A stretch of DNA of 38,059 nt from Clostridioides phage AR1074-1, in sequence record OR397123.1. One strand, written 5' to 3'. Positions 2,213 through 25,333 of the stretch are shown one piece after another. Numbering within the stretch: the first letter of the stretch is position 1; each line of letters starts with the position of its first letter. The notes beneath the pieces are model-generated. The model searched no databases. It was not told the DNA's origin and saw only the letters and a list, made by a program, of their open reading frames with translations. The position numbers and the translations under genes were made by a program.

Positions 2213-2262
2213 CTTGAATTTTTACGATTTTACCATTATATTAAAAACAAGGTGGTGATTAA

Positions 2263-2626: not shown

Positions 2627-2789
2627 TTCTACACTCTAATATTAACACGGAAAACCATTCCAAAAATATTCGTACGACGAATATTCCGACTTTAATTTAC
2701 AAAATTTACCAATTAATTTGTCTATTTTCTAAATTGTAAAAAATTTCTATTGATTTTAATATTTTTTAATACTATAGTTTAATTTCGAC

Positions 2790-3089
2790 ATGGAGTCTTT
2801 ATTAAAATATCATAGAAAAAAGAAAAAACTCACTCAACGTCGATTAAGTGAATTGACAGGAATAAGTCAAAGTTACATTTCAAGGATGGAAAACAAAAAA
2901 TTTAAACACAGCCCAACCTTAACTCAAATAATTTTATTAGCTGATATATTAGAAATTGACCAATTGATTTTATCTGAATTTTTTTTGGAAAAAGAAAGGG
3001 AGCATTTAAAAAATACTAAAAAATATAATAAAAAAGCAGTTAAAACACTTAGCAGGGATTTTTTAAAAGAATATAAAAATAAGGACTAG
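2790..3089 (+). CDS. Second XRE-family HTH regulator
   Basis: 99 aa with LTQRRLSELTGISQSYISRMENKK, a canonical HTH_XRE helix 2-3. Confidence 0.6.
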   Translation: MESLLKYHRKKKKLTQRRLSELTGISQSYISRMENKKFKHSPTLTQIILLADILEIDQLILSEFFLEKEREHLKNTKKYNKKAVKTLSRDFLKEYKNKD

Positions 3090-3116
3090 GTAATTATTTA
3101 TACCTAGCCCCTTTTT

Positions 3117-3791: not shown

Positions 3792-4183
3792 AACTTATAT
3801 TCCTTTAATTTTCTATTCTAGTAGTATGAAAATAATTTAAAAGAATAATACCTATTTATTTCCATTCTAAGCATTTTTTTATGCTATTTAACATAAATTA
3901 TTTATAACAAACAGAAAAATCGTTTCTGGTGTCTTGTATCGCTTCTAAATGATATTCTAGTTTCTTAATCAAATAATCATTTTCTTTTTATCCAAAGATA
4001 CATTCTAATAGTTTCTTTACTTTTGAAAAATGCTAATAATATTTTAAATAGCGACCACCACTTTTTGAGACAAGTTAGATTTCTAATTAAGTTAAGTACT
4101 TTAATAAATAAATACAAAAGATACATATTTTGTTCTCTATAATACAAGTTCTCTATAATAATATATTCTCTATATATTTACTG

Positions 4184-4267
4184 CACCACTTTTTGCACTA
4201 CCAAAGCACCACTTTTTGCACTACCAAAGCACCACTTTTTGCACTACCAAAGCACCACTTTTTGCAC
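4184..4267. repeat. Iterons: about 3.7 tandem copies of a 23-bp unit CACCACTTTTTGCACTACCAAAG
   Basis: Perfect head-to-tail 23-bp repeats at 4184, 4207, 4230 and 4253 (last copy partial). A related half-site, accaccactttttg, lies at 4055-4068. Three TTCTCTATAWA boxes lie at 4132-4182 in an AT-rich tract. Confidence 0.65.
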
Positions 4268-4406
4268 GTAGTAAGAAATCTAATTAATTTTTAAAAACTT
4301 ATTAACATGTTATCAACATAAAAATAATGGTTATCAACATAAAAATCAAAGTTATAAACAGCATTGTTATATTTAGACATAAAAATAGACCTTTTTTAAA
4401 GAAGGT

Positions 4407-5099
4407 CTATTTTTTACGTGCATTTTTCCATTCTGAAAAACTACATAGTCTATATAATTTTTGTATCCTAGGAACTTTTTTATTCTTTTCTTCGTCCCAC
4501 TCAAATTTATTTTCTTTTTTTACTTCGATATATTTGCTTACTTCAAATACTGTTATAATTTTTCTTATTTTACTTCTGTTATTTTTGCTATCACCACATA
4601 ACCCGATTTTTTCACAAATAAATTTTTCAGTCATACATTTAAAACTATTTTCAGTTGTCATGTAACATAAAAGGCAATAAACTTTTATTGCATTAGTATT
4701 AAATGCAGAAATTAATTCTTGTAGCATATCATGATGAATTGTAACAAATTTATGAACGTTATCGTTGTATCCTGTACTTGTACCATAGTTTAATCTATAA
4801 ATTATTCCGTTGCGGCTGTTTTCTATTTCAAGTACTTTACAATCTAAACTATTGAGCTTTTTTATATTTCTCTCTAAAGTAGTACGAGCAACCCCTATTT
4901 GTTTAGCTAATTCTTCCATTTTAAATTTATTTTGATACAAATATCTATTTTTTTCTATATGCATAATTCTCATGCTCCCTTTACTTATAAGCATTAAAGC
5001 GCCAAACTCTTTAGCACAATAATTTTTTTCATTTAAACAATACGTAGGCATTGGTAATTTATAATTTTTTTCTAATTCTTTTGCTTCTTCTAAAGACAT
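4407..5099 (-). CDS. Winged-helix HTH protein, candidate plasmid-type replication initiator (iteron-adjacent)
   Basis: The track ORF is 241 aa. The likely true start is the second Met (MSLEEAKELE...) at 5099, preceded by AAAGGGGGAA and 7 nt. The HTH segment is MEELAKQIGVARTTLERNIKKL. The iterons lie 140 bp beyond its 3' end. Confidence 0.5.
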   Translation of the reverse strand: MSLEEAKELEKNYKLPMPTYCLNEKNYCAKEFGALMLISKGSMRIMHIEKNRYLYQNKFKMEELAKQIGVARTTLERNIKKLNSLDCKVLEIENSRNGIIYRLNYGTSTGYNDNVHKFVTIHHDMLQELISAFNTNAIKVYCLLCYMTTENSFKCMTEKFICEKIGLCGDSKNNRSKIRKIITVFEVSKYIEVKKENKFEWDEEKNKKVPRIQKLYRLCSFSEWKNARKK

Positions 5100-5119
5100 T
5101 TTATTTCCCCCTTTTGACG

Positions 5120-5320
5120 GGGCTTGAAGCACTTTTAACTAATTAAGTTAAAAATTTCAAATTATTTTTAACCTTAAAACATTGATTTATAAGTTGTTTT
5201 AATCTATAATATAACTTATAAATTAGTTAAAAAAGGATATAATTATATCCTATAAGAGCTTCAAGCTCCGTTGGTAAGGAATAAGTCGAGTCGCCAAACA
5301 AACGCTTATTCCTTTTATTT
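5120..5320 (+). ncRNA. Candidate structured antisense/countertranscript RNA opposite the leader of the Rep-like gene, ending in a rho-independent terminator
   Basis: A long-range 13-bp stem pairs cggggcttgaagc (5118-5130) with gcttcaagctccg (5255-5267). Inside are an 18-bp perfect palindrome aggatataattatatcct (5233-5250) and a near-palindrome at 5143-5163. A terminator hairpin aaggaataag...cttattcctt followed by ttttatttgttttt lies at 5278-5325 on the plus strand. No plus-strand CDS lies upstream. Confidence 0.3.
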
Positions 5321-5411
5321 GTTTTTGTAATCTGTAATAAGTTAATATTAATTATAGCATAAATATAAAATAAAAAAATATATTGATTTTGAAAATAAAT
5401 TATATTTTAAA

Positions 5412-5442
5412 AGACTTAGTACACTTACTAAGTCTTTTTTTA
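5412..5442. terminator. Bidirectional hairpin terminator (gacttagta-cact-tactaagtc followed by a T7 run)
   Basis: Perfect 9-bp stem flanked by an A-run upstream and a T-run downstream. Confidence 0.45.
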
Positions 5443-5555
5443 TGTAAATATATGTTATAATAATTTTAGCGAGGAAAAAAGTGATTGAAAAAGCGTAAGA
5501 GTGGCTATTTCCATATTTAAACGCCAAATTCCATAACGGAAGGAGGTGGAACAAT

Positions 5556-5663
5556 ATGGTGATAAATTTTTTATTGAGTATACTAGCTGGTGTTATATCA
5601 GCTTCCATATATGATAAAATAAAAAACCACTCAAACGCCAATAAGAGTGGTTCAAGAAAATAA
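5556..5663 (+). CDS. Type I toxin-like small hydrophobic peptide (35 aa: MVINFLLSILAGVISASIYDKIKNHSNANKSGSRK)
   Basis: Not in the ORF track (under 60 aa). A strong RBS GGAAGGAGGTGG lies 6 nt upstream of the ATG. A single predicted transmembrane helix is followed by a Lys/Arg-rich tail. A convergent antisense promoter and terminator overlap its 3' end. Confidence 0.55.
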   Translation: MVINFLLSILAGVISASIYDKIKNHSNANKSGSRK

Positions 5664-5722
5664 GTTATTTTTCAAAACATTGGAAATAGCTACTCTTGTG
5701 TAAAGTAAATCATTATTTCCTT
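5611..5722 (-). ncRNA. Antisense RNA (type I antitoxin candidate) overlapping the 3' end of the toxin ORF
   Basis: Minus-strand sigmaA-like promoter: -35 TTGTAT (5758-5753), an 18-bp spacer, and an extended -10 TGATATAAT (5737-5729). Minus-strand terminator: hairpin aaccactc/gagtggtt (5625-5653) followed by TTTTTTATTTT. Confidence 0.45.
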
Positions 5723-6241: not shown

Positions 6242-6314
6242 GGATAAGCCTAGAGGGAATAGCCCTTCTCTCTAGGTGACTTCTTTCTAATATTATAACA
6301 CATTTCTAAAAAAC

Positions 6315-6476
6315 ATGAGTGATAAATTTTATAAGATTTGCATTGTTTTAGTTTTGATAACTATAGTCTTAAATATAGTATCTATAGTATTAAACTCTAG
6401 TACAAGCAACATGCTCGGTTTAGTTTTTAGTGTTGTATTATTGCTTTTCTTTGTAATACAGCAAAAAAGGAGCTAA
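6315..6476 (+). CDS. Small two-TM membrane peptide (53 aa)
   Basis: ATG at 6315 and stop at 6474-6476, 4 nt before the next gene's ATG. Two hydrophobic helices (ICIVLVLITIVLNIVSIVL and GLVFSVVLLLFFVI). No clear RBS, so weaker support. Confidence 0.3.
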   Translation: MSDKFYKICIVLVLITIVLNIVSIVLNSSTSNMLGLVFSVVLLLFFVIQQKRS

Positions 6477-6479
6477 TGA

Positions 6480-6662
6480 ATGGAAAAAGAAAAAAGAGAT
6501 TTAAAGTTTAACTTTCACAAAGGTGGGAGTGGGTCGTTTACTCCTAGAATGAGTGTTCCTAAAAAATGGGCTGATGAAATGGGCATAACAAGAGAAAACC
6601 CTAATGTTACGGCAACATTCGAGGGCGACAGGATAATAATTGAAAAGGCTAAGAATGAATGA
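6480..6662 (+). CDS. AbrB/MazE-family (SpoVT/AbrB swapped-hairpin) small DNA-binding protein
   Basis: 60 aa. RMSVPKKWADEMGI...VTATFEGDRIIIEKA matches the AbrB/MazE fold signature. RBS AAAAGGAG. Sits immediately upstream of the partition operon. Confidence 0.6.
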   Translation: MEKEKRDLKFNFHKGGSGSFTPRMSVPKKWADEMGITRENPNVTATFEGDRIIIEKAKNE

Positions 6663-6671
6663 CTTTTTCTA

Positions 6672-6712
6672 TAAAAGAAGGTTGCTTTTTTTCTTAGCCT
6701 TCTTTTTTTTAA
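6672..6712 (+). terminator. Rho-independent terminator after the AbrB-like gene
   Basis: Stem aaagaagg/ccttcttt followed by TTTTTTTT. Confidence 0.45.
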
Positions 6713-6940
6713 ATTTTACTATAATATAAAAATAATACTGTAATATTATAAAAATATTATTTTAGTATTGTATATACAATATTTTAGTATTTTTAATATA
6801 ATATATTGGTATTGTAAAAGCAATATGTAAATATTGTATTTATATTATTTGAATATTGTAATTAACAATATTAATATATTGTTGCAATATTATAAAAACA
6901 ATACTACAATATTGTTATAATATTATAAATATAATAATGA
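6713..6940. repeat. AT-rich centromere-like (parS-type) repeat field upstream of parA: many CAATATT/AATATTG boxes and short palindromes
   Basis: Examples: perfect palindrome acaatattgt (6906-6915), caatattaatatattg, attgtaattaacaat, and repeated taatattata/aatattgta units throughout the roughly 230 bp of non-coding DNA. Confidence 0.5.
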
Positions 6941-6941
6941 G

Positions 6942-7760
6942 GTGGAGAAAATGGCTAATACAAAGCTACTTACGTACTTTAACATAAAAGGAGGTATCTA
7001 TAAGACAACAACGTCTATAATGACAGCGTATGAACTTGCGAAAGATAAAGATAAAAAAATACTCTTATGGGACTTAGATGTACAAGCAAATCTAACACAA
7101 TATGTTTATGAAATAAATCATAATGATAATACTACATTAGATATTTTAAAAGGGATTAGTGCTAATGATGCAATAGTCAAGTCACCTAATGAAAAGTACA
7201 TTAATGTAGACTTAATTCCTTCTGACATACAAATGGCTAGATTTGAACAAGAGCTATCACCTTTACCAGCCAGAGAAAAATTTTTAGCTCGCTGGTACAT
7301 GCAAAACTTTAATACTTTGAGTGAGTATGATTATATTATCTGTGATTTATCTCCACGCTACGATTTGACAGCTAAAAATGTGCTTTTCTTAGCAGATAGT
7401 ATAATTATTCCAATTCAAGATAAAAACATTTCTTCTTTAAGAGGAGCAGAATTATTTAAACAACTCTGGGATGTTGATAGAACCTATTTTGATAAGGAGG
7501 ATAATATAAAAAGTACTGTTTTGGTTGGATTTGAGAAGAAGAAAACTCAAATTAGTGATACTTTCGATTCTTATCTGGAAGGGTTTAACGATATGAGAGA
7601 TATTATGTTAGATACATATATTAGAAAAAACGAGTTTATAGAGAAGGCACTATTGAAAAAACTATCTCTAACAGATTATACAAAAATAACTAAAGAGCAT
7701 TTCAGCAGACAAGAGTTTGCTAATATGTTAGAAGAACTAAAAGTGAAAGGAGTGTTGTAG
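6942..7760 (+). CDS. parA: ParA/MinD-family partition ATPase
   Basis: 272 aa with a deviant Walker A (NIKGGIYKTTTS, KGGxxK[ST] type) and Walker A'/B regions (LLWDLD, IICDLSP). RBS GAGGTGGAG. Confidence 0.85.
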   Translation: MEKMANTKLLTYFNIKGGIYKTTTSIMTAYELAKDKDKKILLWDLDVQANLTQYVYEINHNDNTTLDILKGISANDAIVKSPNEKYINVDLIPSDIQMARFEQELSPLPAREKFLARWYMQNFNTLSEYDYIICDLSPRYDLTAKNVLFLADSIIIPIQDKNISSLRGAELFKQLWDVDRTYFDKEDNIKSTVLVGFEKKKTQISDTFDSYLEGFNDMRDIMLDTYIRKNEFIEKALLKKLSLTDYTKITKEHFSRQEFANMLEELKVKGVL

Positions 7761-8096
7761 ATGCCAAAATTCGACGAAGAACTTTTATCTAATAAAGAAA
7801 AACCAGTTTTCAAAAAAAATGGAACAATCATACAAAATAATTCTACAACTACAGACAATAAGACATTAAACATATATAATCTAGTTAATAAGAAAAGTAA
7901 AAAGGTAACTATGAGTGCAACGCTTGATGAAGAACTTGTAAACAAATTAAAATCTTTTTCTATTGATATGAACAGCGACGTCAGCAAATTATTAAGTGAT
8001 GTACTAACTCAAATTTTATCTGATGTCACTATAAAAGAAGAGAATTTAAATATATACAATGAGAGAAATAGAAGAAATAAGACTAAGAAAAAGTAA
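7761..8096 (+). CDS. ParG/CopG-like ribbon-helix-helix partition adaptor (centromere-binding protein candidate)
   Basis: 111 aa. ATG immediately follows the parA stop. The C-terminal half, KKVTMSATLDEELVNKLKSFSIDMNSDVSKLLSDVLTQIL, fits a beta-strand-helix-helix RHH. The N-terminal half is disordered and basic. Confidence 0.6.
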   Translation: MPKFDEELLSNKEKPVFKKNGTIIQNNSTTTDNKTLNIYNLVNKKSKKVTMSATLDEELVNKLKSFSIDMNSDVSKLLSDVLTQILSDVTIKEENLNIYNERNRRNKTKKK

Positions 8097-8225
8097 ATAA
8101 TATTATATTTATATTGTTTAGATATTACTTAAATATTGTATATATAATATTTAAGTAATATTTTAATATTATTATTACAATATATCGATATTGTTTAAAT
8201 AATATGTTTTAACTATAATCTAAAA
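8097..8225. repeat. Second centromere-like AT-rich repeat field (ATATTGT boxes; 13-bp inverted repeat attacttaaatat/atatttaagtaat)
   Basis: Inverted repeat at 8126-8159 plus repeated atattgt/aatatt boxes, mirroring the field upstream of parA. Confidence 0.45.
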
Positions 8226-8238
8226 GGGGTTGGAAAAG

Positions 8239-8520
8239 ATGAATGTTTATTTGCAAATTGGAAAAGAGTTATCTGAAAAAATGACTAAATCTGAATTAAA
8301 TAAGTTTTCGCAGGAGGTGGCAAACTATCTGCAATACGCTGGACTTGATAAGAATATGAAAATTAAACTATTTCAAACAATTTTGGAAATGGTGGCAAGG
8401 AAAAAAATAACATTATCAAGCGATAGCGAATTTACGGAAGGAATATTGCAAAGCGACGAAGCAGAAATGACAATGAACGTAGGATTTATAATCGAAGGAT
8501 TAAGTTATCATAATAACTAA
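8239..8520 (+). CDS. Hypothetical protein (93 aa)
   Basis: The track begins at a TTG at 8230, but an RBS GGGG at 8226-8229 fits the ATG at 8239 (MNVYLQIGKEL...). A strong terminator follows. Confidence 0.5.
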   Translation: MNVYLQIGKELSEKMTKSELNKFSQEVANYLQYAGLDKNMKIKLFQTILEMVARKKITLSSDSEFTEGILQSDEAEMTMNVGFIIEGLSYHNN

Positions 8521-8536
8521 ACATTTTTAAAAAAAC

Positions 8537-8572
8537 AGTGTATTTATTGAATACACTGTTTTTATTTCCGCA
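8537..8572 (+). terminator. Rho-independent terminator (cagtgtatt-tattg-aatacactg plus TTTTTATTT)
   Basis: Perfect 9-bp stem followed by a T-run directly after the 8239-8520 gene. Confidence 0.7.
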
Positions 8573-8786
8573 TAGTTAATCTAAAATTGGATATTGTATC
8601 ATATGGATATAGATTAAATTGATATTTAAATCCCTTATAGTTAATCTTAAAAATTGTTATTATATTATTTCTCTATAAATTAAATTGACATTTAAATCCC
8701 TTGTAGTTAATATAAAAATTCTTATTACAATATCATTTCTAAATAAATTAAAAAATATTTTAAATCCCTCGTAGTTAATCTTAAAA
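8560..8786 (-). CRISPR. Orphan CRISPR-repeat-like mini-array: 3 well-conserved plus 1 degenerate 29-30-bp direct repeats at a 66-bp period. Minus-strand unit is TTTTTAWKATTAACTAYAAGGGATTTAAAT.
   Basis: On the plus strand the repeats lie at 8624-8652, 8690-8718 and 8757-8786 (ATTTAAATCCCTTRTAGTTAATMTWAAAA). A degenerate copy lies at about 8560-8587, as expected for a trailer-end repeat. Spacers are 35-38 bp. The minus-strand repeat begins TTTTATATTAACTA and ends GGGATTTAAAT, like clostridial type I-B repeats (recalled C. difficile consensus GTTTTATATTAACTAAGTGGTATGTAAAT). No cas genes in the window. The spacers share an AAATTAAATTGA motif, so a true array is uncertain. Confidence 0.4.
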
Positions 8787-8822
8787 GCGATACTATATAC
8801 ATTAATAATAATACTCTTCTAC

Positions 8823-9317
8823 TTAATTTTCAACTATATTTTGTAATTCTTGTTTACAACTTTCAATGCCTTCTCGTAATTCTTCTAAAAAAACTGATGT
8901 GCTATCGTCTATATTTCTTTCAGCAATTTCTTCAAAATTTTCTTTATTGAATTTTTTATAACTATCCCAATTCAAACTTTCGCATTTATTTTCGCACCAA
9001 TTTTCAAATTCTTCGTAATCATTTACGTAGTAAATTTCTCCAAACATATCGTCTAAGTTATTTCCTGTTTGTCTTGATGTGAAAATATTAATTTCTTTAT
9101 CATCATCTAAAAGTTTAGCATAAGCCTGGATTGCTATCGCTTCAACTTTTCCTTGTATATCGATATAAATTTTTATATCATTAGTCTCTTTGATTAAACA
9201 ACTTTCTTTAAAAGCTTTTATAGCTTCTTCCTCTATTTTATCTATATTCATATCTATAACCTTTAAAAATTTTTTAGCTTCTTTTTTATCCATTTTATCC
9301 ATTTTAATTTCCTCCAT
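8823..9317 (-). CDS. Hypothetical strongly acidic protein (164 aa, about 28% Asp+Glu); candidate anti-defence DNA mimic
   Basis: Last gene of the three-gene cargo operon. Its stop is 36 bp from the CRISPR-like repeats. No recognisable domain. Confidence 0.5.
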   Translation of the reverse strand: MEEIKMDKMDKKEAKKFLKVIDMNIDKIEEEAIKAFKESCLIKETNDIKIYIDIQGKVEAIAIQAYAKLLDDDKEINIFTSRQTGNNLDDMFGEIYYVNDYEEFENWCENKCESLNWDSYKKFNKENFEEIAERNIDDSTSVFLEELREGIESCKQELQNIVEN

Positions 9318-9324
9318 TTTTTAG

Positions 9325-9828
9325 TTATTTTTTATATATAACAGTTCTTTCGCTCTTTTCAATTTCTGTAAGATACTCTAAAAATTCTTTAATTTCTTGC
9401 TTGTTTATGCCTATAAATTCGTGTCTAATTTCACATTTTTCAATACGTGTAGAATATTTCTCTTCTAATTTATAAAATTTAGGTCTTACATTGGCTATAA
9501 GGTCACTTTCTACATTTTTGCTACACAAGCTATTTACATATATTAAAATGTTTTCTATATTTTCTATGTCTACTTTGTCGCCTTTTGAATAATAAAAATT
9601 AAATCTCAATCTTATTCCTATTTTACTGTTAATTTCACCATGACCCCACGTTTCAATGTTTAAACTTTTTCCAACTGTTTCTTTAACGCTTCCAATGTGA
9701 CCGTTCGCACAATCTTTAAGACTTATATCAAATATATCATTGTTGATTTTATTAATCTCTTTTTCTATCATTTTAACATTCTCTTTATTAACTTTTAAAT
9801 CTAATATTGTACTAAAATCTATATTCAT
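9325..9828 (-). CDS. Hypothetical protein (167 aa), cargo operon gene 2
   Basis: Tightly spaced with its neighbours (7-bp gap), suggesting translational coupling. No recognisable motif. Confidence 0.5.
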   Translation of the reverse strand: MNIDFSTILDLKVNKENVKMIEKEINKINNDIFDISLKDCANGHIGSVKETVGKSLNIETWGHGEINSKIGIRLRFNFYYSKGDKVDIENIENILIYVNSLCSKNVESDLIANVRPKFYKLEEKYSTRIEKCEIRHEFIGINKQEIKEFLEYLTEIEKSERTVIYKK

Positions 9829-9904
9829 GTTTTAAACCTCCAATTATTTTTTATTTTAATTATAGCATTCAATGGTGAACTATATTTGTATCAAGTTGAA
9901 ACTT

Positions 9905-10738
9905 TTAACACTCTACGCCATCTCTGAATACTTGGTATGCAATTTCTATTTTTCTTTCATCACTTTCTATTTTTCTATAGTTTTCAATCTGCTTCTTTTT
10001 AATGTCTGCAAATCCATTTCTATAAAATTGTGCATTTTTTTGTATTAATGTTTCTATTATGTATTTTTTAGCTTTCTCTATATATTCTGTGCTAGTAGCT
10101 TGTTTTACTGCGTCGTCAAATATTTCAACTATTTCAAGTACATTTTCTTTTATTTCATTAGACCAATTATCATTAAAATTTATTTCTTTAGCTATTTTCT
10201 TAGCTTCTTCATAGCTTATACTATAATCTTTAACTTTTTTAAGTCTATAAGATGCTTGTGTCTCCCCTTGTAAAAAACTCCAATTTCTGTTCTCTTTTGC
10301 AAATTGAGAATCTTTTAATATCTGATTTATATGAAATGCTTTTTGATTTAAAGAATTATACTTTAAAACATTTCTAAAATTATCTATAAAGAACTTAGCA
10401 TTCTCTATATTGCTTATTGCTTCTCTTATTCTTTCAAATTTTCTTTTACATCTTTCTGTCATTTCTTCTATACTCATGTCTTTAATTTTGTAGTCTTCAT
10501 TTTTTATTCTTTCTATTTTACTTTTTTCTAGTTCGTTAGTTAAATTTAAAATGTCTGTTCTTATATCATTAGCCCAAATAATTTGTTTTTCTGACCCTTT
10601 TAATTCTTTCAATTTTATATCCCCCTTTTTATTTAAGAATGATAAGCAAAGACTAAATTGTACTTTATAATCTACATTACTATATTTTCTTTTTATTTCT
10701 CTTGCCATTTTATGCGCTTCTTTAAATAAAATTTTCAT
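9905..10738 (-). CDS. Hypothetical protein (277 aa), cargo operon gene 1
   Basis: First gene downstream of a divergent promoter shared with a small XRE-like regulator. Lys/Glu-rich and helical, with no recognisable catalytic motif. Confidence 0.5.
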   Translation of the reverse strand: MKILFKEAHKMAREIKRKYSNVDYKVQFSLCLSFLNKKGDIKLKELKGSEKQIIWANDIRTDILNLTNELEKSKIERIKNEDYKIKDMSIEEMTERCKRKFERIREAISNIENAKFFIDNFRNVLKYNSLNQKAFHINQILKDSQFAKENRNWSFLQGETQASYRLKKVKDYSISYEEAKKIAKEINFNDNWSNEIKENVLEIVEIFDDAVKQATSTEYIEKAKKYIIETLIQKNAQFYRNGFADIKKKQIENYRKIESDERKIEIAYQVFRDGVEC

Positions 10739-10916
10739 TCTTTGCTTACCCCCTTGTTTTATTTGTTAATTATATTATAATCTATATGAATATCTAAGTC
10801 AACACTTTTTCAAAGTTTTTTCTTTGATTTCCAAAAATATAACTTTGATTAGCGTAGATTATTCTTTTACTTTTAATTTTTTTATGTTATTATATAAATA
10901 AGAGAGGTGCGAAAAA

Positions 10917-11174: not shown

Positions 11175-12014
11175 CTATCTATCAATAAAATCTAATGCTT
11201 TGTAAAGTGTTTCAAACCTATCATTACCTTTTATCATAGTATAATTTTCTTTAGTCATAGAACTTATCTTTTCACATGCTCCACCACCAACAACATAAAG
11301 ATTTTGTGTCTGGCCAGGTACATAATCTTTTATATCACATATTAATATTTTCCCATCATTATAACCCCATCCAACAACAGTTGCAGGGATTTTGTCAACT
11401 TCTCCATCATAAATGATTGTATGTTTGTACATCTGTTTAACTCCCTCATTATTTATATTTTTATTTAATACACCTTCTACAATCAACTTAGCAATACCTT
11501 CATGACCTAGTTTCTTAGCTTTCTCATAATCTTCTTTGTTATCGCAAAAGAAACTTTCAATTAGTATTGCAGTAGGTTTAGAACTATTTAAAATATATAA
11601 ACTTTTATCTAATTTAACACCTCTATTACCTACTTCTTTATCTCCTTTTTTTCTTATGAAAGGTTTAGATAATTTATCTACTACCCTTTGCGCATATTCC
11701 TTCCCTTTTTCACTATAGTAAAATACTTCTGTTCCAAAGGCTCCTACACCACTTGAATTTAAATGCAACTCTATAAGTAAGTCATATCCTCCACTATTAA
11801 CTTTAGGTATTTTGTAAGATTTTTCCTCACTCTTAGTTTTAAACTGCTTTTCGGGGCATATTATTACATCTGCCTTATGACCTTCTTTTCTAAAAGTATC
11901 TGCTAATACTGGTGCAAGAGATTTATTGTATTGATACTCGTTAACTACTCCATTAGCAGAAGTACATGCCCCGCTTTTTAAAATGCTGTGTCCTACTGTT
12001 ATACATATTTTCAT
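11175..12014 (-). CDS. Endolysin: N-acetylmuramoyl-L-alanine amidase (Amidase_3 catalytic domain, CD27L-like)
   Basis: 279 aa. MKICITVGHSILKSGACTSANGVVNEYQYNKSLAPVLADTFRKEGHK... is nearly identical in pattern to the C. difficile phage endolysin CD27L, as recalled from memory. Confidence 0.9.
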   Translation of the reverse strand: MKICITVGHSILKSGACTSANGVVNEYQYNKSLAPVLADTFRKEGHKADVIICPEKQFKTKSEEKSYKIPKVNSGGYDLLIELHLNSSGVGAFGTEVFYYSEKGKEYAQRVVDKLSKPFIRKKGDKEVGNRGVKLDKSLYILNSSKPTAILIESFFCDNKEDYEKAKKLGHEGIAKLIVEGVLNKNINNEGVKQMYKHTIIYDGEVDKIPATVVGWGYNDGKILICDIKDYVPGQTQNLYVVGGGACEKISSMTKENYTMIKGNDRFETLYKALDFIDR

Positions 12015-12445
12015 TATTTACTACCTCCTTTAACATTTAATTCATCTGTCATAGTATCTAATAAACTACCTATTCTATCTTTTAATTTTCTAGGTACTGG
12101 TAACCCACACAAATACATGTTTTTTAATATACTTACACTTTCATATAGAATAAATAAAATAGAGAAAAATTCAGATATTCCAAGATGATTTAATCGCAAA
12201 AAATCAACCCAATCTTGTGGTAACATAAATAAAAAGTTAAACTTTGTAAGAATGTCAACTACTGCTAGAAAAAATATACATGCTATCATTGCAACTTTTC
12301 TTATTCCTCCATTTATTCCAAAACTTGAATTAAACTGATGTGTTTTTATTGCTCTTAAACAACCTAGCAATGTATCAAATGCTATTGCTAATATTACTAA
12401 TTTTATAAATATATTTGTCGCTAAAAAAACTATTGTTACGTTCAT
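12014..12445 (-). CDS. Holin (phage_holin_4_1 / TcdE-like)
   Basis: 143 aa with 3-4 transmembrane helices and a charged C-terminus. Overlaps the endolysin start by 1 nt. Confidence 0.75.
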   Translation of the reverse strand: MNVTIVFLATNIFIKLVILAIAFDTLLGCLRAIKTHQFNSSFGINGGIRKVAMIACIFFLAVVDILTKFNFLFMLPQDWVDFLRLNHLGISEFFSILFILYESVSILKNMYLCGLPVPRKLKDRIGSLLDTMTDELNVKGGSK

Positions 12446-12513
12446 ATTTCCTCCTTATTTTGCATTAAAATAAGACTTAGAATTATCTAAGCCTATAGAA
12501 AAAGGAACATTAC

Positions 12514-12696
12514 CTATACTGTAGGTTCTGCTCCTTCTACTACTCCACTATGTTCTATAATGTAGTTTTCAACTGCCATCCTGTACTCTGTGTTAGTAAC
12601 ATCATCAAGTTCAAATACTCTATTTTTTAGAGGATTTAATCCCTTATTTAATATTCTCTCTGCTAATATTCTTACTACAACATTATTTATATTCAT
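12514..12696 (-). CDS. Small hypothetical protein (60 aa) between the tail fibre and the holin
   Basis: Compact ORF in the fibre/lysis junction, a position often held by XkdX-like small proteins. Confidence 0.4.
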   Translation of the reverse strand: MNINNVVVRILAERILNKGLNPLKNRVFELDDVTNTEYRMAVENYIIEHSGVVEGAEPTV

Positions 12697-12989
12697 TATA
12701 AAATTCCTCCTACCTTTTCATTTTCTGCAATTAGTAATTGATTTTCTAACTCTTGTATTCTCTTTTCTTCATCTGAAATAAATGTTGGTATTTCCTCTAA
12801 AATTGGTTCTTTTGTTTCTATATTTATACCTATAATTCTATTTCTTGTATAGTCTATACTTCCATACTCAACATCAATATAATGTAATTCTGTTATTGTA
12901 TCATGTTCTAGTATATCTCCTGTTGCTTCCCCTGTCTGTAGCAGTATTTTGCCTGTCTGGTCGTAAATTATTCTATTTGCTCTATCCAT
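12696..12989 (-). CDS. Hypothetical tail-fibre-associated protein (97 aa)
   Basis: Start/stop overlap with its neighbours. Position immediately downstream of the receptor-binding protein. Confidence 0.45.
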   Translation of the reverse strand: MDRANRIIYDQTGKILLQTGEATGDILEHDTITELHYIDVEYGSIDYTRNRIIGINIETKEPILEEIPTFISDEEKRIQELENQLLIAENEKVGGIL

Positions 12990-13005
12990 TTTATCACCTC
13001 ATTTA

Positions 13006-14688
13006 TTAAATAAATTTTATAGCTTGCCATTTAAAAGAAGAACCTTGTCTTGAACAAGGAAGTTGTATACCTCTATTATCCATATAAACATCACGTTCAT
13101 TTAATTTAAGAACCTCACCTCCAACTTTAAAATCTTGTAAATATGATGTTAGACGATAATAATGAGCAGTAATTACAAAATCTTGAGTGAAAATACCACG
13201 ACAAGCAAAAACAAAATATTTATGAAAATAACCATCATCAATTAATTCAAAAGTAGTAAAAAATATATTAGGAACAAAATTAAGTCCGTTAATTTGAATG
13301 GCTCCAGGAAATAGGAACAGATAGTCACTATTAAAATAAAATCCTTTTGTATTAGTACAATAATTAACAACACTATTGCCACTAGCAACTTTATATTTAG
13401 AATTTAACTGACTTATAGTGTTATTAGCTTGTGTTAACTGATTCATCAAATCCTGCAAACTAGCGTCCGAACTATCAAAACTTGTTTTTATTTTCTCTGA
13501 CAACTCTACTAGCGTATTATTTAAACTTGCTTCTATATTCTTTAATGCTAAAGTGTTTATAATACTTGTTTTGCCACTTTTGAATGTATCTTTAATTTCC
13601 ATCCATTTGCTTGTAACTTCATCTGTTGTAGAACCAGCAGGAAGAGGTGCAATTCCTTTGCTTATACTTACAACTTTTTCTGCTGTAGCATTAGCACTGT
13701 CTGTAACAACTATTTTAAGTGTGTGTAGTGCATTATCTTCTACTGTATAGTTAATTGTTTTTTCTGCTGTTAAATCTGTTGTTATAGTTTCTTTTAGTAC
13801 ATCATCTATAAAATATTCTATCTTAGTCAATAAAGTAGGGTCAGTGTGGTCAGCTTTGAATGTTGCTTGTGTAGAATTATAAGATGATATATTTAAAAAT
13901 GGTAATGATTGAAGTAAAGTTATTTGTGCGTAACCATAAGCACCAGCAGTATTTCCACCCGGTGTCATAACAATATTATCAAAATAATATTCAGATGTTG
14001 GTGTGTAGCCAGTAGGCTTATAACTGTCTTTAGTCAATACATAACTACTTCCACCTCCACCTGCTCCTACACCATTCATGCCTGCACCACCAAACCAGCC
14101 ACCTCCGCCGCCTTCGCCAGTTGAATCTTTAACAGAACACCCTTTTCCAAAACTTCCGTTTTCTGTATTTACACGACCAATACCACCTTGATATTGAGTA
14201 CCACCGGGACGGTATCTGTCATTAGAACTATACCCAGTACCTCCTTCTAATCCTCCTCCTGCACCACCAGTGGAAGGATAATATGAACCTCCGCCACCAC
14301 CTGCGACAATTATACGAGATAGCAAACCTTGCTCATTATCCCAAGCACCACCAACAAGTCTTATATCGGTAGCACCACCACCGTACATAGAATAATAAGT
14401 ACCCATAATCTGTTGATTTAAATAACCTTTACCACCGCCATTAAAACCACTTTTAGTGTTATTACTCGTAGATGAAGAAGCAAAACCACTTTCGCCGACG
14501 TAAACATATAATGTAGTTTGTTTTTTTAATGTAATTTCACCTTTAGAATATCCGCCTTTAGCATCAGTATACCAAGAAGAATTGTTGATACCTCCAGAAG
14601 AACCCCAGCATTCAAATTTATATTTGCCAGGTTTCAATATAACACTTTGTGGCGAACCATTGTACCCAAAGTTCCATTCTGTCTGCAT
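13006..14688 (-). CDS. Tail fibre / receptor-binding protein with a central glycine-rich domain
   Basis: 560 aa. A central region of about 120 aa is extremely Gly-rich (GGGGGSYYPSTGGAGGGLEGGTGY...GEGGGGGWFGGAGMNGVGAGGGGSSY). It is not Gly-X-Y collagen and resembles the glycine-rich domain of phage tail fibres. Last large structural gene before lysis. Confidence 0.7.
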   Translation of the reverse strand: MQTEWNFGYNGSPQSVILKPGKYKFECWGSSGGINNSSWYTDAKGGYSKGEITLKKQTTLYVYVGESGFASSSTSNNTKSGFNGGGKGYLNQQIMGTYYSMYGGGATDIRLVGGAWDNEQGLLSRIIVAGGGGGSYYPSTGGAGGGLEGGTGYSSNDRYRPGGTQYQGGIGRVNTENGSFGKGCSVKDSTGEGGGGGWFGGAGMNGVGAGGGGSSYVLTKDSYKPTGYTPTSEYYFDNIVMTPGGNTAGAYGYAQITLLQSLPFLNISSYNSTQATFKADHTDPTLLTKIEYFIDDVLKETITTDLTAEKTINYTVEDNALHTLKIVVTDSANATAEKVVSISKGIAPLPAGSTTDEVTSKWMEIKDTFKSGKTSIINTLALKNIEASLNNTLVELSEKIKTSFDSSDASLQDLMNQLTQANNTISQLNSKYKVASGNSVVNYCTNTKGFYFNSDYLFLFPGAIQINGLNFVPNIFFTTFELIDDGYFHKYFVFACRGIFTQDFVITAHYYRLTSYLQDFKVGGEVLKLNERDVYMDNRGIQLPCSRQGSSFKWQAIKFI

Positions 14689-14705
14689 TTTCTCACTCTC
14701 CTCTC

Positions 14706-15587
14706 TTATATAGGTAACATATCATTTTGTATAGATATATTAACCTCATTAAATTTTTCTATTTTTCTAACAACTTCATCTATTGCCCCTTGCACATTCG
14801 TAGCAGTAAGATTACTTGTTGCATTATTATAACTTGTTTTCTCTGCTGTTGTTTCTATTTTTGCTAACTCTTCTTTTACTTTGTTTATTTCATTTAATAA
14901 GTTTCCAGCTGCATCCTCATCCAAAATATCTTTTATACTTTCAAACCAAATGTTAAACTCTGATACAAAATTTGTTGTTGTAGTGTTATACCAATCTTCT
15001 TGTTTATTCTCTTGATTTTCCCGCCAAACATTGAAATTACTTATTTCTTCATCTTTCCAAGTATTTAGTTGTGCAAGTAATGTTGTTGTGTCTATTTCTT
15101 CTATCGTGCCTTTTACAATTCCACACAAATTTTTATCTAATCTTAAATCTGTTATAGAACTTTGTGTAATACTTATTGCTCCAGCTCTGATATAAATATC
15201 AGCTAATCCAAGTTCGTACGCATCTGCATCACGTTGTAATTCTGTTGCAACTGGGGAACTATTAAAAGTACATTTTTTAACAGCTAATTTAATATTTCTA
15301 TTTAAAGTATCAAATCTTAAAACTACTCTGTCTATTCTATTTAAAATTCCATCTGCGGGGTCTATATTAATTACTAAATCGTCTGTGTTTATATAGATAG
15401 CTCCGTTAATCCAGCCCTTGCCTTTTTTTACTGTTATAGTCATATTATTATTATCTACAACTTGCAAATTGCTACTTGGATTAGGGAATACACCATTACC
15501 TATAAAACTAGCAAAATATTCTCTAAAGTCCTCTGCCTTGTATCTCCTATCGCCATTTACACTATTAAATACAAAACTTTTTTCCAT
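14706..15587 (-). CDS. Baseplate protein (BppU-like upper baseplate component, by size and synteny)
   Basis: 293 aa between the Tal-like and receptor-binding genes. Order and sizes (Dit 288, Tal 359, BppU-like 293, RBP 560) mirror lactococcal p2-type baseplates. Confidence 0.45.
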   Translation of the reverse strand: MEKSFVFNSVNGDRRYKAEDFREYFASFIGNGVFPNPSSNLQVVDNNNMTITVKKGKGWINGAIYINTDDLVINIDPADGILNRIDRVVLRFDTLNRNIKLAVKKCTFNSSPVATELQRDADAYELGLADIYIRAGAISITQSSITDLRLDKNLCGIVKGTIEEIDTTTLLAQLNTWKDEEISNFNVWRENQENKQEDWYNTTTTNFVSEFNIWFESIKDILDEDAAGNLLNEINKVKEELAKIETTAEKTSYNNATSNLTATNVQGAIDEVVRKIEKFNEVNISIQNDMLPI

Positions 15588-16666
15588 TATTTCACCATCC
15601 TTTTTATTTTTGAAAATAAGGTTGGTATGCTGCTCCCAAACGTAATTTTTAATTTCATCCCATTTTTACTATAGCTTTCTTGTACTTCTACAATTCTAGT
15701 ATCCATTGTTACTTTCAATTTTCTATCTTGAACTGTAACAATATCCCCTAGTTTGTAGTCTTTTTCATACATAAAAGTATTTTTAGGGTCTATTTCTAAT
15801 TCAAAACTTTTTAACTCTTCATATTCTTTTAATTTAATTTCTCCTTCTTTTTGTAGTATGCTTATAGTATTTTCACTTACATCTGCAAAGACTTCGTTTC
15901 TCTCAAAACCTTCAACCTCACCAGTTGAAATTACCAGTTTTGTCGCGTCTTCTCTTGCTCCAGCATACACAACATTTTTAGAGTTAATTATACTTTCTGT
16001 AAAGTGTCTAGCTCTTATGTTATTAAAATCACTTCTAAAAATAACCGGCGGGTTTTCTGTTTGATTAATAGTCAAATCTTTACCAGTAATTACGTCAAAA
16101 ATAAATTTCTTTTTATTAGCATCCAACACTACCTCCCAACCAAGCCCACAAAATTCTGATATTTCTTGAATTTTATCACTTAAATTTTCGTAAGAACTTC
16201 GCCACATATCAGCACTTCCAAGATTTTTGTTTTCTGAAATGATAAGATTATCAATTACACGTTTTGGATTTGAAGGGTCTACGCAGTTATTATTAACAAA
16301 AGCTTTTATAATTTCTTCTTGTGTCCCTTCGTGACTTTCGAAAGCTTCTCCAGTGTCGGGTATGATGAGCCTTCTATTTAACAAGCCTTTTAAATCCACG
16401 CCTTTAACAGATAAAATGTCGCTTTTTTCTCCTGTTTCGGTGTACATGAACTCTCGATGAAGTATCAAACAAACTTTATTATAATTTTTACCAAGTAGAA
16501 TTATATTATTTTTAACTAATTTATCTACATGATTTTTATTAGCATTTATTTTTAAACTAAACTCTCCTACTTTGTGGAATTTTTTAATAATCTGTAATTC
16601 TTCGTAATTATCTATTTCAGCTATTAAATTTATATTTTTATCTAGTATTCTTATGCTCTGCTGCAT
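15587..16666 (-). CDS. Tail-associated protein Tal (short form, gp27-like N-terminal domain only)
   Basis: 359 aa immediately downstream of Dit. Size and position support the call; no C-terminal lysin extension. Confidence 0.5.
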   Translation of the reverse strand: MQQSIRILDKNINLIAEIDNYEELQIIKKFHKVGEFSLKINANKNHVDKLVKNNIILLGKNYNKVCLILHREFMYTETGEKSDILSVKGVDLKGLLNRRLIIPDTGEAFESHEGTQEEIIKAFVNNNCVDPSNPKRVIDNLIISENKNLGSADMWRSSYENLSDKIQEISEFCGLGWEVVLDANKKKFIFDVITGKDLTINQTENPPVIFRSDFNNIRARHFTESIINSKNVVYAGAREDATKLVISTGEVEGFERNEVFADVSENTISILQKEGEIKLKEYEELKSFELEIDPKNTFMYEKDYKLGDIVTVQDRKLKVTMDTRIVEVQESYSKNGMKLKITFGSSIPTLFSKIKRMVK

Positions 16667-16667
16667 A

Positions 16668-17534
16668 TTACACCCCCAAATAAAGTGGATTATAATATAT
16701 AGACATTTCTAAATTATCAATTCCTACGTCTGCGTCATATCTAAATAAATTGTCTCCAACTTCAAGTTGTAAAAATTCGCTATCCAAGTCAATCCAATTA
16801 AATACATTTATTCTTTCATAGTTTGATTTTACTAACTCTATTCTTTTATTTGCAAATTCTGTTGTTATTTCTAATAAGTCACCAGCTTCAAGGGTTCTGT
16901 TTATCTTAATATATTCTCTTGTGTTTACATTAAATAGGCTAGGATTATCAACTGTTGCAAGTGCTTTAAATTGTATTTTCATGCCACATTCAACGTCTCC
17001 GTTATTCACTACATTACAAATTAAATTACTTACCCTATGACCCATTTCTATTCCTTCATTACTTATTTCTAAAGTAAATTCGAAGTCACCAACCCATAAG
17101 GCGACTTCTTCTTTTAAAACAAACTCATCCATCCAAAATGGGCTTGGAGTTAAGAGCTGTATAAGAAACTTTTGCATCAATCTAACTGGTGTTTGAAATG
17201 TTATGTCTTGCACAACTCCTTTGACACGTTTAGTTAATGCGTTATTTGTATATATAAATTCCATTTCTCCTAATTTAGGATTAAACAAAGAGGTTAAATA
17301 TGCACGTTTTAATTCTAAATCTTCTTTATTTTTTGCATAAATAGCTGCTGAAATAGGAAGTAATCTCTCTTTTATGCTTATATCATCTATACTTACACCA
17401 TCACCTAGATTGTTCGAGACTGAAATATTAGCACTAGTATTTGCTCCGTTTTCTATTTTTTCTAACAAAAAAGGGCGTGAGTTTCCTAATTTAACTTCTT
17501 GCCCTTTCGAGTTTCTACATATTAATTTTTGCAA
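16668..17534 (-). CDS. Distal tail protein (Dit)
   Basis: 288 aa directly downstream of the tape measure gene, the canonical siphovirus position. Confidence 0.55.
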   Translation of the reverse strand: MQKLICRNSKGQEVKLGNSRPFLLEKIENGANTSANISVSNNLGDGVSIDDISIKERLLPISAAIYAKNKEDLELKRAYLTSLFNPKLGEMEFIYTNNALTKRVKGVVQDITFQTPVRLMQKFLIQLLTPSPFWMDEFVLKEEVALWVGDFEFTLEISNEGIEMGHRVSNLICNVVNNGDVECGMKIQFKALATVDNPSLFNVNTREYIKINRTLEAGDLLEITTEFANKRIELVKSNYERINVFNWIDLDSEFLQLEVGDNLFRYDADVGIDNLEMSIYYNPLYLGV

Positions 17535-25314: not shown

Positions 25315-25333
25315 ACTATCTCCTAACTTTTTT

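What the first reader, a model, noticed from the sequence alone, without database searches (positions are those of the whole stretch)
13006..14688. Receptor-binding tail fibre with a non-collagen glycine-rich domain
About 120 residues are dominated by Gly in irregular runs (GGGGGSYYPSTGGAGGGLEGGTGY...GGGGGWFGGAGMNGVGAGGGGSS), flanked by beta-rich N- and C-terminal domains. This composition is characteristic of the glycine-rich fibre domains of Firmicute phages and differs from Gly-X-Y collagen repeats. Being the last structural gene before lysis, it is the prime host-range determinant (for example an S-layer or cell-wall glycopolymer receptor in C. difficile).
Basis: partly seen in the sequence, partly recalled or inferred. 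Interest (0 to 1): 0.4.

Follow-up and report, generated by a model that had tools for sequence, protein, structure and literature searches.

The report
C. difficile phage receptor-binding protein PtsM
The gene encodes a known type of Clostridioides difficile phage receptor-binding protein (PtsM); its glycine-rich part is a folded N-terminal domain related to the ligand-binding domain of the human ALK/LTK receptors, and it most likely anchors the fibre to the tail while the variable C-terminal head binds the host.

Summary
ORF 13006-14688 (- strand, 560 aa) has 35% Gly over residues 85-215 with no Gly-X-Y phase.

The protein belongs to the PtsM family of C. difficile phage and Avidocin receptor-binding proteins. 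It sits in a ptsL-ptsM-ptsN-ptsO cassette between the Dit/Tal genes and holin/endolysin. Residues 272-560 match the solved 'Tail fiber protein' 31he (E=3.6e-78). It is 96% identical to phiMMP02 gp26 and 61% to CDMH1 gp30.

An Ig-like domain, a helical stalk and a hypervariable beta head (433-560) follow. In a published homologue the C-terminal part binds SlpA.

New here: in 67 distinct PtsM/PtsL pairs, glycine-rich PtsMs pair only with two PtsL tail types and glycine-poor PtsMs only with a third, despite recombination on both sides. This points to the glycine-rich domain as the PtsL-docking shoulder.

The family is already known, so interest is low to moderate.

The parts
13006..14688 (-). ptsM: 560-aa receptor-binding protein (the finding)
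   Evidence: ORF. Pfam PF12810. phrog_1589 matched end to end (E=5e-259). 96.4% nucleotide identity to phiMMP02 gp26. Residues 272-560 match PDB 31he 'Tail fiber protein'.
13906..14688 (-). N-terminal TNF-like/glycine-rich domain (aa 1-261), ALK/LTK GRD type; proposed PtsL-docking shoulder
13663..13899 (-). Ig/FN3-like beta-sandwich (aa 264-342), the most conserved part of the family
   Evidence: Seven strands in the full-length model. Foldseek hits to FN3/Ig-like modules. 92% mean pairwise identity among 124 homologues.
13396..13626 (-). alpha-helical stalk (aa 355-431), probable coiled-coil oligomerisation region
   Evidence: Helices 355-371, 373-405 and 411-431 in the model, with low pLDDT as a monomer. 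80% mean identity. The equivalent region of PtsHN10M (376-465) is needed for co-elution with PtsL (PMC9615553).
13009..13392 (-). hypervariable C-terminal beta-rich head (aa 433-560), probable receptor-binding domain
   Evidence: Column entropy rises from below 1 bit to 1.4-2.3 bits after residue 440. Mean identity is 40%, minimum 3%. The head aligns with that of 31he and ends in the conserved W.AIKFI motif. The C-terminal half of PtsHN10M is sufficient for cell binding (PMC9615553).
14706..15587 (-). ptsL: 293-aa baseplate-attachment protein; the last ~20 aa (…KFNEVNISIQNDMLPI) form the tail matched to glycine-rich PtsMs
   Evidence: Lies immediately upstream of ptsM. 89.5% identical to phiCD6356 gp18 over residues 1-267, then diverges. 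The tail is identical to that of the 267-aa myovirus PtsL in L059 and one residue different from the CDMH1 PtsL tail.
12696..12989 (-). ptsN: 97-aa probable fibre chaperone
   Evidence: Lies immediately downstream of ptsM. 94% identical to phiMMP02 gp27. Its variants track the head type. PtsHN10N improves PtsM activity (PMC9615553), and ptsN plus ptsO raise Avidocin activity (PMC4453579). The PHROG name 'rhodanese-related sulfurtransferase' has no Pfam support.
12514..12696 (-). ptsO: 60-aa second short downstream gene
   Evidence: ORF. phrog_1243 matched over its full length. Always present after the 97-aa gene in related loci. Named ptsO after the gene in the same position in PMC4453579.
12473..12494 (-). 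terminator-like hairpin between the fibre cassette and the lysis genes
   Evidence: Consensus scan only: 9-pair stem followed by a T-rich tail.
15587..17534 (-). siphovirus baseplate genes upstream: Tal (15587-16666) and Dit (16668-17534)
   Evidence: PF14594 Sipho_Gp37 E=2e-81. PF05709 and PF22768 for Dit.
11175..12445 (-). lysis module downstream: holin (12014-12445) and Amidase_3 endolysin (11175-12014)
   Evidence: PF05105 and PF01520. Strong terminator-like hairpin at 11171-11140.

Best explanation
The ORF encodes the PtsM-type receptor-binding protein of a phiCD6356-like C. difficile siphophage. It has four modules.
1. An N-terminal domain of about 260 residues, homologous to the TNF-like/glycine-rich ligand-binding domain of the ALK/LTK receptors. 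A beta-sandwich carries a block of glycine-rich extended segments.
2. A conserved Ig-like domain.
3. A helical stalk that oligomerises the protein.
4. A hypervariable C-terminal beta head.

Proposed mechanism, inferred and not shown: the stalk brings two or three N-terminal domains together. These form the socket ('shoulder') that receives the C-terminal tail of the baseplate-attachment protein PtsL. The head then points outward and binds the host S-layer protein SlpA (low-molecular-weight subunit), which sets host range. PtsN and PtsO help folding and assembly.

The cassette moves as a plug-in unit. The identical protein is found on siphovirus and myovirus baseplates.
For: Shown here:
- Gene order is TMP-Dit-Tal-ptsL-ptsM-ptsN-ptsO-holin-endolysin.
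- Residues 272-560 match the solved C. difficile fibre protein 31he (E=3.6e-78).
- The protein is 96% identical to phiMMP02 gp26 and 61% identical over its full length to CDMH1 gp30.
- Module boundaries come from the models.
- Variability by module: glycine-rich domain 73%, Ig 92%, stalk 80%, head 40% mean identity among 124 homologues.
- The exact protein occurs behind a 293-aa siphovirus PtsL, behind 341-aa and 267-aa myovirus PtsLs, and behind a lone 109-aa PtsL tail.

For the docking role:
- In 67 distinct PtsM/PtsL-tail pairs from 142 loci, all 45 glycine-rich PtsMs follow tails ending …SSIATSVNELITYC or …NEVNISIQNDMLPI.
- All 22 PtsMs with another N-domain follow tails ending …RTSIISSINNNLIPM (Fisher p=4e-18).
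- Head types 0, 1, 2 and 4 and PtsL bodies (for example the 341-aa form) occur in both classes.
- Recombination is therefore frequent on both sides and at the junction, yet never crosses the class boundary.

From papers:
- PtsM of phi027 retargets diffocin only when fused through the distal part of its own PtsL (PMC4453579).
- PtsHN10M competes with phage adsorption, and its residues 259-570 bind cells and LMW SlpA (PMC9615553).
- SlpA is the general receptor for C. difficile phages and Avidocins (reviewed in PMC13324602).
Against: - No binding, virion or host-range data exist for this protein, so the receptor is inferred from homologues whose heads differ in sequence.
- Residues 1-269 and 1-376 of PtsHN10M did not co-elute with PtsL, and residues 376-465 were needed (PMC9615553). 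The N-domain alone is therefore not sufficient for docking, and the contact could lie in the stalk.
- The tail/N-domain association is between adjacent DNA segments, and the loci are related. Linkage contributes, and the p-value overstates independence.
- In the solved phage fibres with this kind of domain (Pam3 gp24, S16 gp38), the glycine-rich block is the distal receptor-binding tip, not the proximal end (PMC9608196).
- The oligomeric state is unresolved: dimer or trimer.
Confidence: 0.75

Rival explanations
1. The glycine-rich N-terminal domain is itself a ligand-binding module. PtsM would then be a two-headed adhesin. The C-terminal head binds LMW SlpA, and the glycine-rich block binds a second envelope component such as a cell-wall polysaccharide or another cell-wall protein. 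This would match the role of the domain in the Pam3 gp24 and S16 gp38 fibre tips and in ALK/LTK.
For: - In Pam3 the TNF-like plus glycine-rich domains are described as the receptor-recognising tip (PMC9608196).
- The domain diversifies into at least 12 subtypes only 41-55% identical, mostly in the loops between glycine motifs.
- It occurs in tandem arrays in giant bacterial proteins, one of them with a bacterial surface Ig-like domain, as adhesin modules do.
- In phiMMP03 and L054 the glycine-rich PtsM accompanies another large fibre protein.
Against: - The N-terminal fragment 1-269 of PtsHN10M did not bind C. difficile cells in ELISA, whereas 259-570 did (PMC9615553).
- The domain is much less variable than the head (73% against 40%).
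- PtsMs without it work; phi027 PtsM retargets Avidocin (PMC4453579).
- The perfect pairing with PtsL tail class is better explained by docking.
Confidence: 0.15
2. The protein is an accessory or secondary fibre rather than the primary host-range determinant of this phage. Another tail protein (Tal or PtsL) would provide the decisive receptor contact.
For: In some relatives the same or a similar protein lies downstream of another large fibre protein (a 1759-aa WD40/RCC1 protein in L054; a second fibre set in phiMMP03). The parent-like phage phiCD6356 carries three different fibre genes at this position.
Against: In the window no other candidate exists. Tal is a short 359-aa Sipho_Gp37 protein with no added binding domain, and PtsL is 293 aa with no recognisable binding domain. 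PtsHN10L did not bind cells or compete with adsorption (PMC9615553). The hypervariable, cassette-swapped head is the signature of the specificity determinant.
Confidence: 0.07
3. The glycine-rich stretch is a flexible, low-complexity or collagen-like linker with no defined fold.
For: High glycine content and almost no DSSP-assigned helix or strand between residues 64 and 236 of the model.
Against: - There is no Gly-X-Y periodicity.
- The glycines are invariant family columns.
- The model is confident (pLDDT 91, pTM 0.92).
Confidence: 0.02

Closest known systems
PtsM receptor-binding proteins of C. difficile phages, prophages and Avidocin-CDs (phi027 PtsM; PtsHN10M; CDMH1 gp30; phiMMP02 gp26)
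   Same: Same gene position (ptsL-ptsM-ptsN-ptsO before the lysis genes). Same conserved Ig-like and helical centre. Head of the same family as the solved 31he chain. Same N-terminal Pfam glycine-rich domain as PtsHN10M (14-267). 96% identical to phiMMP02 gp26 (PMC4453579, PMC9615553, PMC13324602).
   Different: This copy sits on a siphovirus (phiCD6356-like) baseplate rather than a myovirus or diffocin. Its head is only about 35-40% identical to the 31he head by eye (alignment), so its S-layer type specificity is unknown. The 31he protein (probably phi027 PtsM) and phiMMP04 gp23 carry a different N-terminal domain, not a glycine-rich one.
TNF-like/glycine-rich ('TG') ligand-binding domain of ALK and LTK receptor tyrosine kinases (Pfam PF12810; PDB 7lrz, 7nx1, 7n00, 7lir)
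   Different: The phage domain is shorter (about 260 against about 300 residues), with TM-scores of only 0.45-0.51. It sits at the N-terminus of a phage fibre, and no ALKAL-like cytokine ligand is involved. The proposed partner here is the PtsL tail. That the glycine segments form polyglycine-II helices is assumed from ALK (my knowledge of the 2021 Nature structures) and was not measured on the model.
Glycine-rich fibre tips of other phages: cyanophage Pam3 gp24 (7ypx), Salmonella phage S16 gp38 (6f45), mycobacteriophage Bxb1 gp33 'tail wing brush' (9d93)
   Different: In Pam3 and S16 the glycine block is the C-terminal, distal, receptor-binding tip with hypervariable end loops. Here it is N-terminal, less variable than the C-terminal head, and co-segregates with the PtsL tail. 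S16 gp38 was not among the listed hits.
Shoulder-neck-head receptor-binding proteins of lactococcal siphophages (p2 ORF18, TP901-1 BppL); comparison from my own knowledge
   Same: The same logic of a conserved N-terminal docking domain, a connecting neck and an exchangeable C-terminal head that sets host range.
   Different: No sequence or fold relation was found. Those proteins are trimers that bind cell-wall polysaccharide. Here the receptor is probably an S-layer protein, and the oligomer may be a dimer.

Membership tests
PtsM-type RBP of C. difficile phages/Avidocins | Gene lies directly after the baseplate-attachment gene ptsL and before two short genes (ptsN, ptsO) and the lysis genes | tested here: met
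   Order Tal-ptsL(293 aa)-ptsM(560)-97 aa-60 aa-holin-amidase. Definition from PMC4453579.
PtsM-type RBP of C. difficile phages/Avidocins | Sequence homology to characterised or solved PtsM proteins | tested here: met
   31he 'Tail fiber protein' E=3.6e-78 over residues 272-560. 61% identity over the full length to CDMH1 gp30, which PMC9615553 reports as about 54% identical to PtsHN10M. That 31he is phi027 PtsM is inferred; the paper gives no PDB code.
PtsM-type RBP of C. difficile phages/Avidocins | Conserved centre with a hypervariable, cassette-like C-terminal head | tested here: met
   Ig 92%, stalk 80%, head 40% mean identity. At least 7 head types occur on one subtype of the glycine-rich domain.
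PtsM-type RBP of C. difficile phages/Avidocins | Binds C. difficile cells / LMW SlpA and determines killing or host range | not testable with these tools
   Shown only for homologues (PMC9615553, PMC4453579, PMC13324602).
PtsM-type RBP of C. difficile phages/Avidocins | Present in the virion, attached through PtsL | not testable with these tools
   Indirect only: PtsL tail class co-segregates with PtsM N-domain class.
Pfam PF12810 ALK_LTK_GRD | Match to the family HMM above the gathering score, covering the whole profile | tested here: met
   182.5 bits against a cut-off of 24.5; profile positions 2-243 of 243; residues 15-259.
Pfam PF12810 ALK_LTK_GRD | Independent profile recovers ALK/LTK | tested here: met
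   A profile of 30 phage and metagenomic domains hits 8 PDB sequences, all ALK or LTK ectodomains (E=4e-5 to 3e-3).
Pfam PF12810 ALK_LTK_GRD | Same three-dimensional fold as the ALK/LTK TG domain | tested here: met
Pfam PF12810 ALK_LTK_GRD | Glycine segments form a hexagonal lattice of polyglycine-II helices | tested here: inconclusive
   The glycine-rich segments carry no DSSP helix or strand in a confident model, which is compatible.
Collagen-like phage fibre | Gly at every third residue (Gly-X-Y repeats) | tested here: not met
   16, 15 and 15 glycines in the three registers of residues 85-215.
Glycine-rich distal adhesin tip (S16 gp38 / Pam3 gp24 type) | TNF-like or beta domain carrying a glycine-rich lattice | tested here: met
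Glycine-rich distal adhesin tip (S16 gp38 / Pam3 gp24 type) | Domain lies at the distal (C-terminal) end of the fibre and is its most variable part | tested here: not met
   The domain is N-terminal (residues 1-261), and the most variable part is the C-terminal head.

The most novel reading that the evidence does not exclude
The N-terminal ALK/LTK-type glycine-rich domain may be more than a passive shoulder. It could be a working ligand-binding module that clamps the helical C-terminal tail of PtsL in the way ALK/LTK clamp their helical cytokines, or it could additionally bind a second host-envelope component. The phage and bacterial domains would then be the prokaryotic counterpart of the metazoan ALK/LTK ligand-binding domain and a tractable model for how this glycine lattice recognises partners. 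They number 5,126 clusters at 50% identity and often form tandem arrays in giant proteins.
Probability: 0.2. Interest if true: 0.6.

Novelty: already known. Interest (0 to 1): 0.27.

Why it matters
PtsM proteins decide which C. difficile strains a phage or an engineered Avidocin can attack, so knowing which module does what guides retargeting.

This analysis adds a practical rule. The last ~20 residues of PtsL must match the class of the PtsM N-terminal domain (glycine-rich or not), whereas heads and PtsL bodies can be exchanged freely. The identical PtsM works, or at least circulates widely, on both siphovirus and myovirus baseplates.

The analysis also documents, with profile and fold evidence, that the 'glycine-rich domain' of these fibres is a homologue of the ALK/LTK ligand-binding domain. 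That domain has thousands of uncharacterised bacterial relatives. None of this changes the basic, already published picture of the family.

Tried and rejected
- Collagen-like repeat: rejected, because there is no Gly-X-Y phase.
- Direct sequence search of the PDB with the single protein did not find ALK. Only a profile of diverse domains did.
- I first looked for co-variation between the PtsL tail and the subtype of the glycine-rich domain. The first sample of 39 loci suggested a one-to-one pairing with the window as the only exception. The exact-sequence look-ups showed the identical PtsM behind both tail types, so subtype-level pairing was rejected. Only the class-level pairing (glycine-rich against other N-domains) survived in the larger sample.
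- BLASTP found no similarity between the window's PtsL and phiMMP02 PtsL, although their PtsMs are nearly identical.
- A PDB sequence search with PtsL gave nothing useful.
- The Foldseek PDB library (entries to April 2026) does not hold 31he, so the predicted head fold could not be compared with the crystal structure. The head gave no significant fold match.
- The three 2021 ALK/LTK structure papers are not in the held library. Statements about polyglycine-II helices in ALK therefore rest on my own knowledge and on citing papers (PMC11364801, PMC13243192).
- Searches for PF12810 or for ALK together with phage in the literature found no paper discussing the phage proteins.
- Overlapping plus-strand ORFs of 54-66 aa inside the gene were treated as chance ORFs. 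They were not investigated further.
Full report
**Observation.** Window 13006-14688 is exactly one minus-strand ORF of 560 codons. Glycine makes up 35% of residues 85-215 (46 of 131), against 4.3% in residues 260-560. The three Gly-X-Y registers hold 16, 15 and 15 glycines, so there is no collagen periodicity. The glycine codons raise local G+C to 37.6% in an otherwise roughly 29% G+C region.

**Context.**
- The gene lies in the late operon of a siphovirus-type prophage: tape measure (1733 aa), Dit (PF05709/PF22768), Tal (PF14594), a 293-aa protein, the 560-aa protein, 97-aa and 60-aa ORFs, holin (PF05105) and Amidase_3 endolysin.
- A terminator-like hairpin follows the 60-aa ORF, and a strong one follows the endolysin.
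- The structural region is 93% identical to phage phiCD6356 as far as window 14841, which lies inside the 293-aa gene.
- Window 12499-14702 (the 560-, 97- and 60-aa genes) is 94.7% identical to the myovirus phiMMP02.
- The roughly 140 bases between these two blocks encode a PtsL tail of the CDMH1 type.
- At this position phiCD6356 itself carries three other fibre genes.
- The window is therefore a mosaic in which a myovirus-type fibre cassette sits on a siphovirus baseplate.

**Family.**
- PHROG phrog_1589 matches end to end (E=5e-259), function 'unknown'.
- Megablast finds the gene only in C. difficile phages (27 records), with phiMMP02 gp26 at 96.4%.
- The large protein database gives 3,136 relatives, and the best 120 are all Clostridioides.
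- Residues 272-560 match PDB 31he, a 514-aa 'Tail fiber protein' with two chains (E=3.6e-78).
[quoted passage not shown] It gives no PDB code (PMC13324602). I take 31he to be that entry, but this is an inference.
- Gebhart et al. defined the cluster ptsL (baseplate attachment), ptsM (receptor-binding protein) and ptsN/ptsO (two short downstream genes that raise activity). They showed that phi027 PtsM retargets a diffocin when joined through the distal part of its own PtsL (PMC4453579).
- Phetruen et al. showed several things for PtsHN10M, a 570-aa homologue with a Pfam glycine-rich domain at 14-267. The protein competes with phage adsorption. Residues 259-570 bind cells and residues 1-269 do not. 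[quoted passage not shown] Residues 376-465 are needed for co-elution with PtsL (PMC9615553).
- The window protein is 61% identical over its full length to CDMH1 gp30, one of the proteins those authors compare PtsHN10M with (about 54% identity).
- The gene is therefore a PtsM. The 293-aa gene is ptsL, and the 97- and 60-aa genes are ptsN and ptsO.

**The glycine-rich part.**
- Pfam places residues 15-259 in PF12810 ALK_LTK_GRD, covering the whole profile (E=1.7e-53).
- As an independent test, I searched the first 262 residues against 1.84 billion representative proteins. This gave 5,126 clusters at E<=1e-3 and 2,303 at E<=1e-10. Many are proteins of 2,000-7,000 residues with up to nine tandem copies.
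- Nine of these proteins scanned against Pfam carry only PF12810, apart from one with a bacterial surface Ig-like domain and one with a weak DUF7713 match.
- An alignment of 30 diverse copies has 21 invariant columns, mostly glycines, in motifs such as GGGATD, SRIIVAGGGGG and GGGGGWYGG.
- The profile of that alignment hits eight PDB sequences, all ALK or LTK ectodomains (E=4e-5 to 3e-3).
- An AlphaFold2 model of residues 1-262 is confident (pLDDT 91.3, pTM 0.92).
- Foldseek's 21 best PDB hits are all ALK/LTK 'TG' domains (E=2e-8 to 1e-4), and the next hit has E=0.5.
- The glycine-rich stretch is therefore the core of one folded TNF-like/glycine-rich domain, not a linker and not flanked by a separate N-terminal domain.
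- Among 50,697 phage genomes, tblastn finds the window's domain only in C. difficile phages (36 records).
- A scan of one genome per species finds the domain in uncultured Bacilli, Erysipelotrichaceae, Clostridia, Bacteroidota, Saccharibacteria and others.

**Architecture and variability.**
- The full-length model (pLDDT 72) gives four modules: the glycine-rich domain (1-261), a seven-stranded Ig-like sandwich (264-342), long helices (355-431, low confidence as a monomer) and a beta-rich head (433-558, pLDDT about 80-89).
- Among 124 full-length homologues, mean pairwise identity is 73% (glycine-rich domain), 92% (Ig), 80% (stalk) and 40% (head, minimum 3%). Column entropy jumps after residue 440.
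- One subtype of the glycine-rich domain carries at least seven head types, and PtsN variants follow the head type.
- This is the signature of an exchangeable receptor-binding head on a conserved stem.

**Role of the glycine-rich domain.**
- The exact 560-aa sequence is on record in 94 blocks of public assemblies, in four contexts:
  - the window's siphovirus arrangement (many contigs of about 36-38 kb);
  - a myovirus with a 341-aa PtsL ending …SSIATSVNELITYC;
  - a myovirus with a 267-aa PtsL ending …NEVNISIQNDMLPI;
  - downstream of a 1759-aa WD40/RCC1 protein, preceded by a 109-aa ORF that is only a PtsL tail.
- I then collected 142 loci with a PtsM and an upstream PtsL, which gave 67 distinct PtsM/tail pairs.
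- All 45 glycine-rich PtsMs (at least 12 subtypes) follow one of the two tails above, or a truncated variant of the first.
- All 22 PtsMs with a different N-domain (the phiMMP04 type; the 31he protein likewise shows no match to the glycine-rich domain) follow a third tail, …RTSIISSINNNLIPM. There are no exceptions (Fisher p=3.7e-18).
- Four head types and the PtsL body forms occur in both classes.
- Recombination therefore happens upstream of the tail, at the ptsL/ptsM junction and downstream of the N-domain, yet never produces a cross-class pair.
- Adjacency and shared ancestry inflate the statistic. Even so, the pattern is what selection for a tail/N-domain fit would give, and it agrees with the engineering rule of Gebhart et al.
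- I conclude, at moderate confidence, that the glycine-rich domain is the PtsL-docking shoulder.
- The failure of PtsHN10M fragments 1-269 and 1-376 to bind PtsL is most simply explained by a need for stalk-mediated oligomerisation. It also leaves open a contact in the stalk.

**Rivals.**
- The Pam3, S16 and ALK precedents and the tandem arrays in bacterial giants support a role for the domain as a second binding site. The negative cell-binding result for the PtsHN10M N-terminal fragment, the lower variability of the domain and the tail pairing argue against it.
- A role as a mere accessory fibre is unlikely in this window, because no other binding candidate exists.
- A disordered or collagen-like linker is excluded.

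**Verdict.** The protein belongs to a published, experimentally studied family, and its exact sequence is already in public assemblies. What is added here is the demonstration that the domain is an ALK/LTK-type fold, the module map, and the tail/N-domain class rule. Interest is low to moderate.

Noticed in passing
window 12499-14841; L002 (phiCD6356) 6728-10827: phiCD6356 carries three fibre genes at this place: gp19 with kelch repeats, gp22 with a phi027-PtsM-like head, and gp25. gp22 and gp25 begin with the helical motif MIEKLNE.ASLS.LI.AFE (gp19 with a weaker variant) and are each followed by a PtsN-like gene. In the window all of this is replaced by a single ptsM-ptsN-ptsO cassette. One breakpoint lies inside ptsL (about 14841) and another at the ptsL/ptsM junction (14702).
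   Followed up: partly
L054 (GCA_018855015.1) 1-5683: The identical PtsM lies downstream of a 1759-aa WD40/RCC1-repeat protein (like the diffocin RtbM described in PMC13324602). It is preceded by a 109-aa ORF that consists only of the C-terminal part of PtsL, including the …NDMLPI tail.
   Followed up: partly
window 12696-12989 and 14706-15587: Public names look wrong. PtsN is called 'rhodanese-related sulfurtransferase' and PtsL 'head protein' (PHROG/RefSeq), with no Pfam support. Some PtsM clusters are named 'receptor protein-tyrosine kinase' in UniRef, evidently because of PF12810.
   Followed up: partly
L057 and L058 (GCA_025906295.1, GCA_030164145.1) 6244-8609: In sibling prophages with the same fibre cassette, no Amidase_3 endolysin is called after the holin. 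A 172-aa gene with a PF18967 PycTM domain (a Pycsar-type effector domain) follows instead.
   Followed up: no
P0121-P0270; L068-L134: The ALK/LTK-type glycine-rich domain occurs in up to nine tandem copies in uncharacterised metagenomic proteins of up to about 7,000 residues. It is also spread over uncultured Bacilli, Erysipelotrichaceae, Clostridia, Bacteroidota, Saccharibacteria and Myxococcales genomes.
   Followed up: partly
window 25001-26000: G+C falls to 20%, the lowest in the window, within the structural operon (ORF 25334-25984, minus strand).
   Followed up: no
L060 (GCA_015702275.1) 7132-8882: A sibling siphophage with the same PtsL but a different PtsM head carries an additional ORF of more than 633 aa directly after ptsO, where the window has the holin.
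   Followed up: no
L061-L066: Many contigs carrying the window's arrangement are 36-38 kb long, close to the window length. Close relatives (phiCD6356, phiMMP04) carry ParA-like partition genes. This suggests a complete extrachromosomal (plasmid-like) prophage.
   Followed up: no
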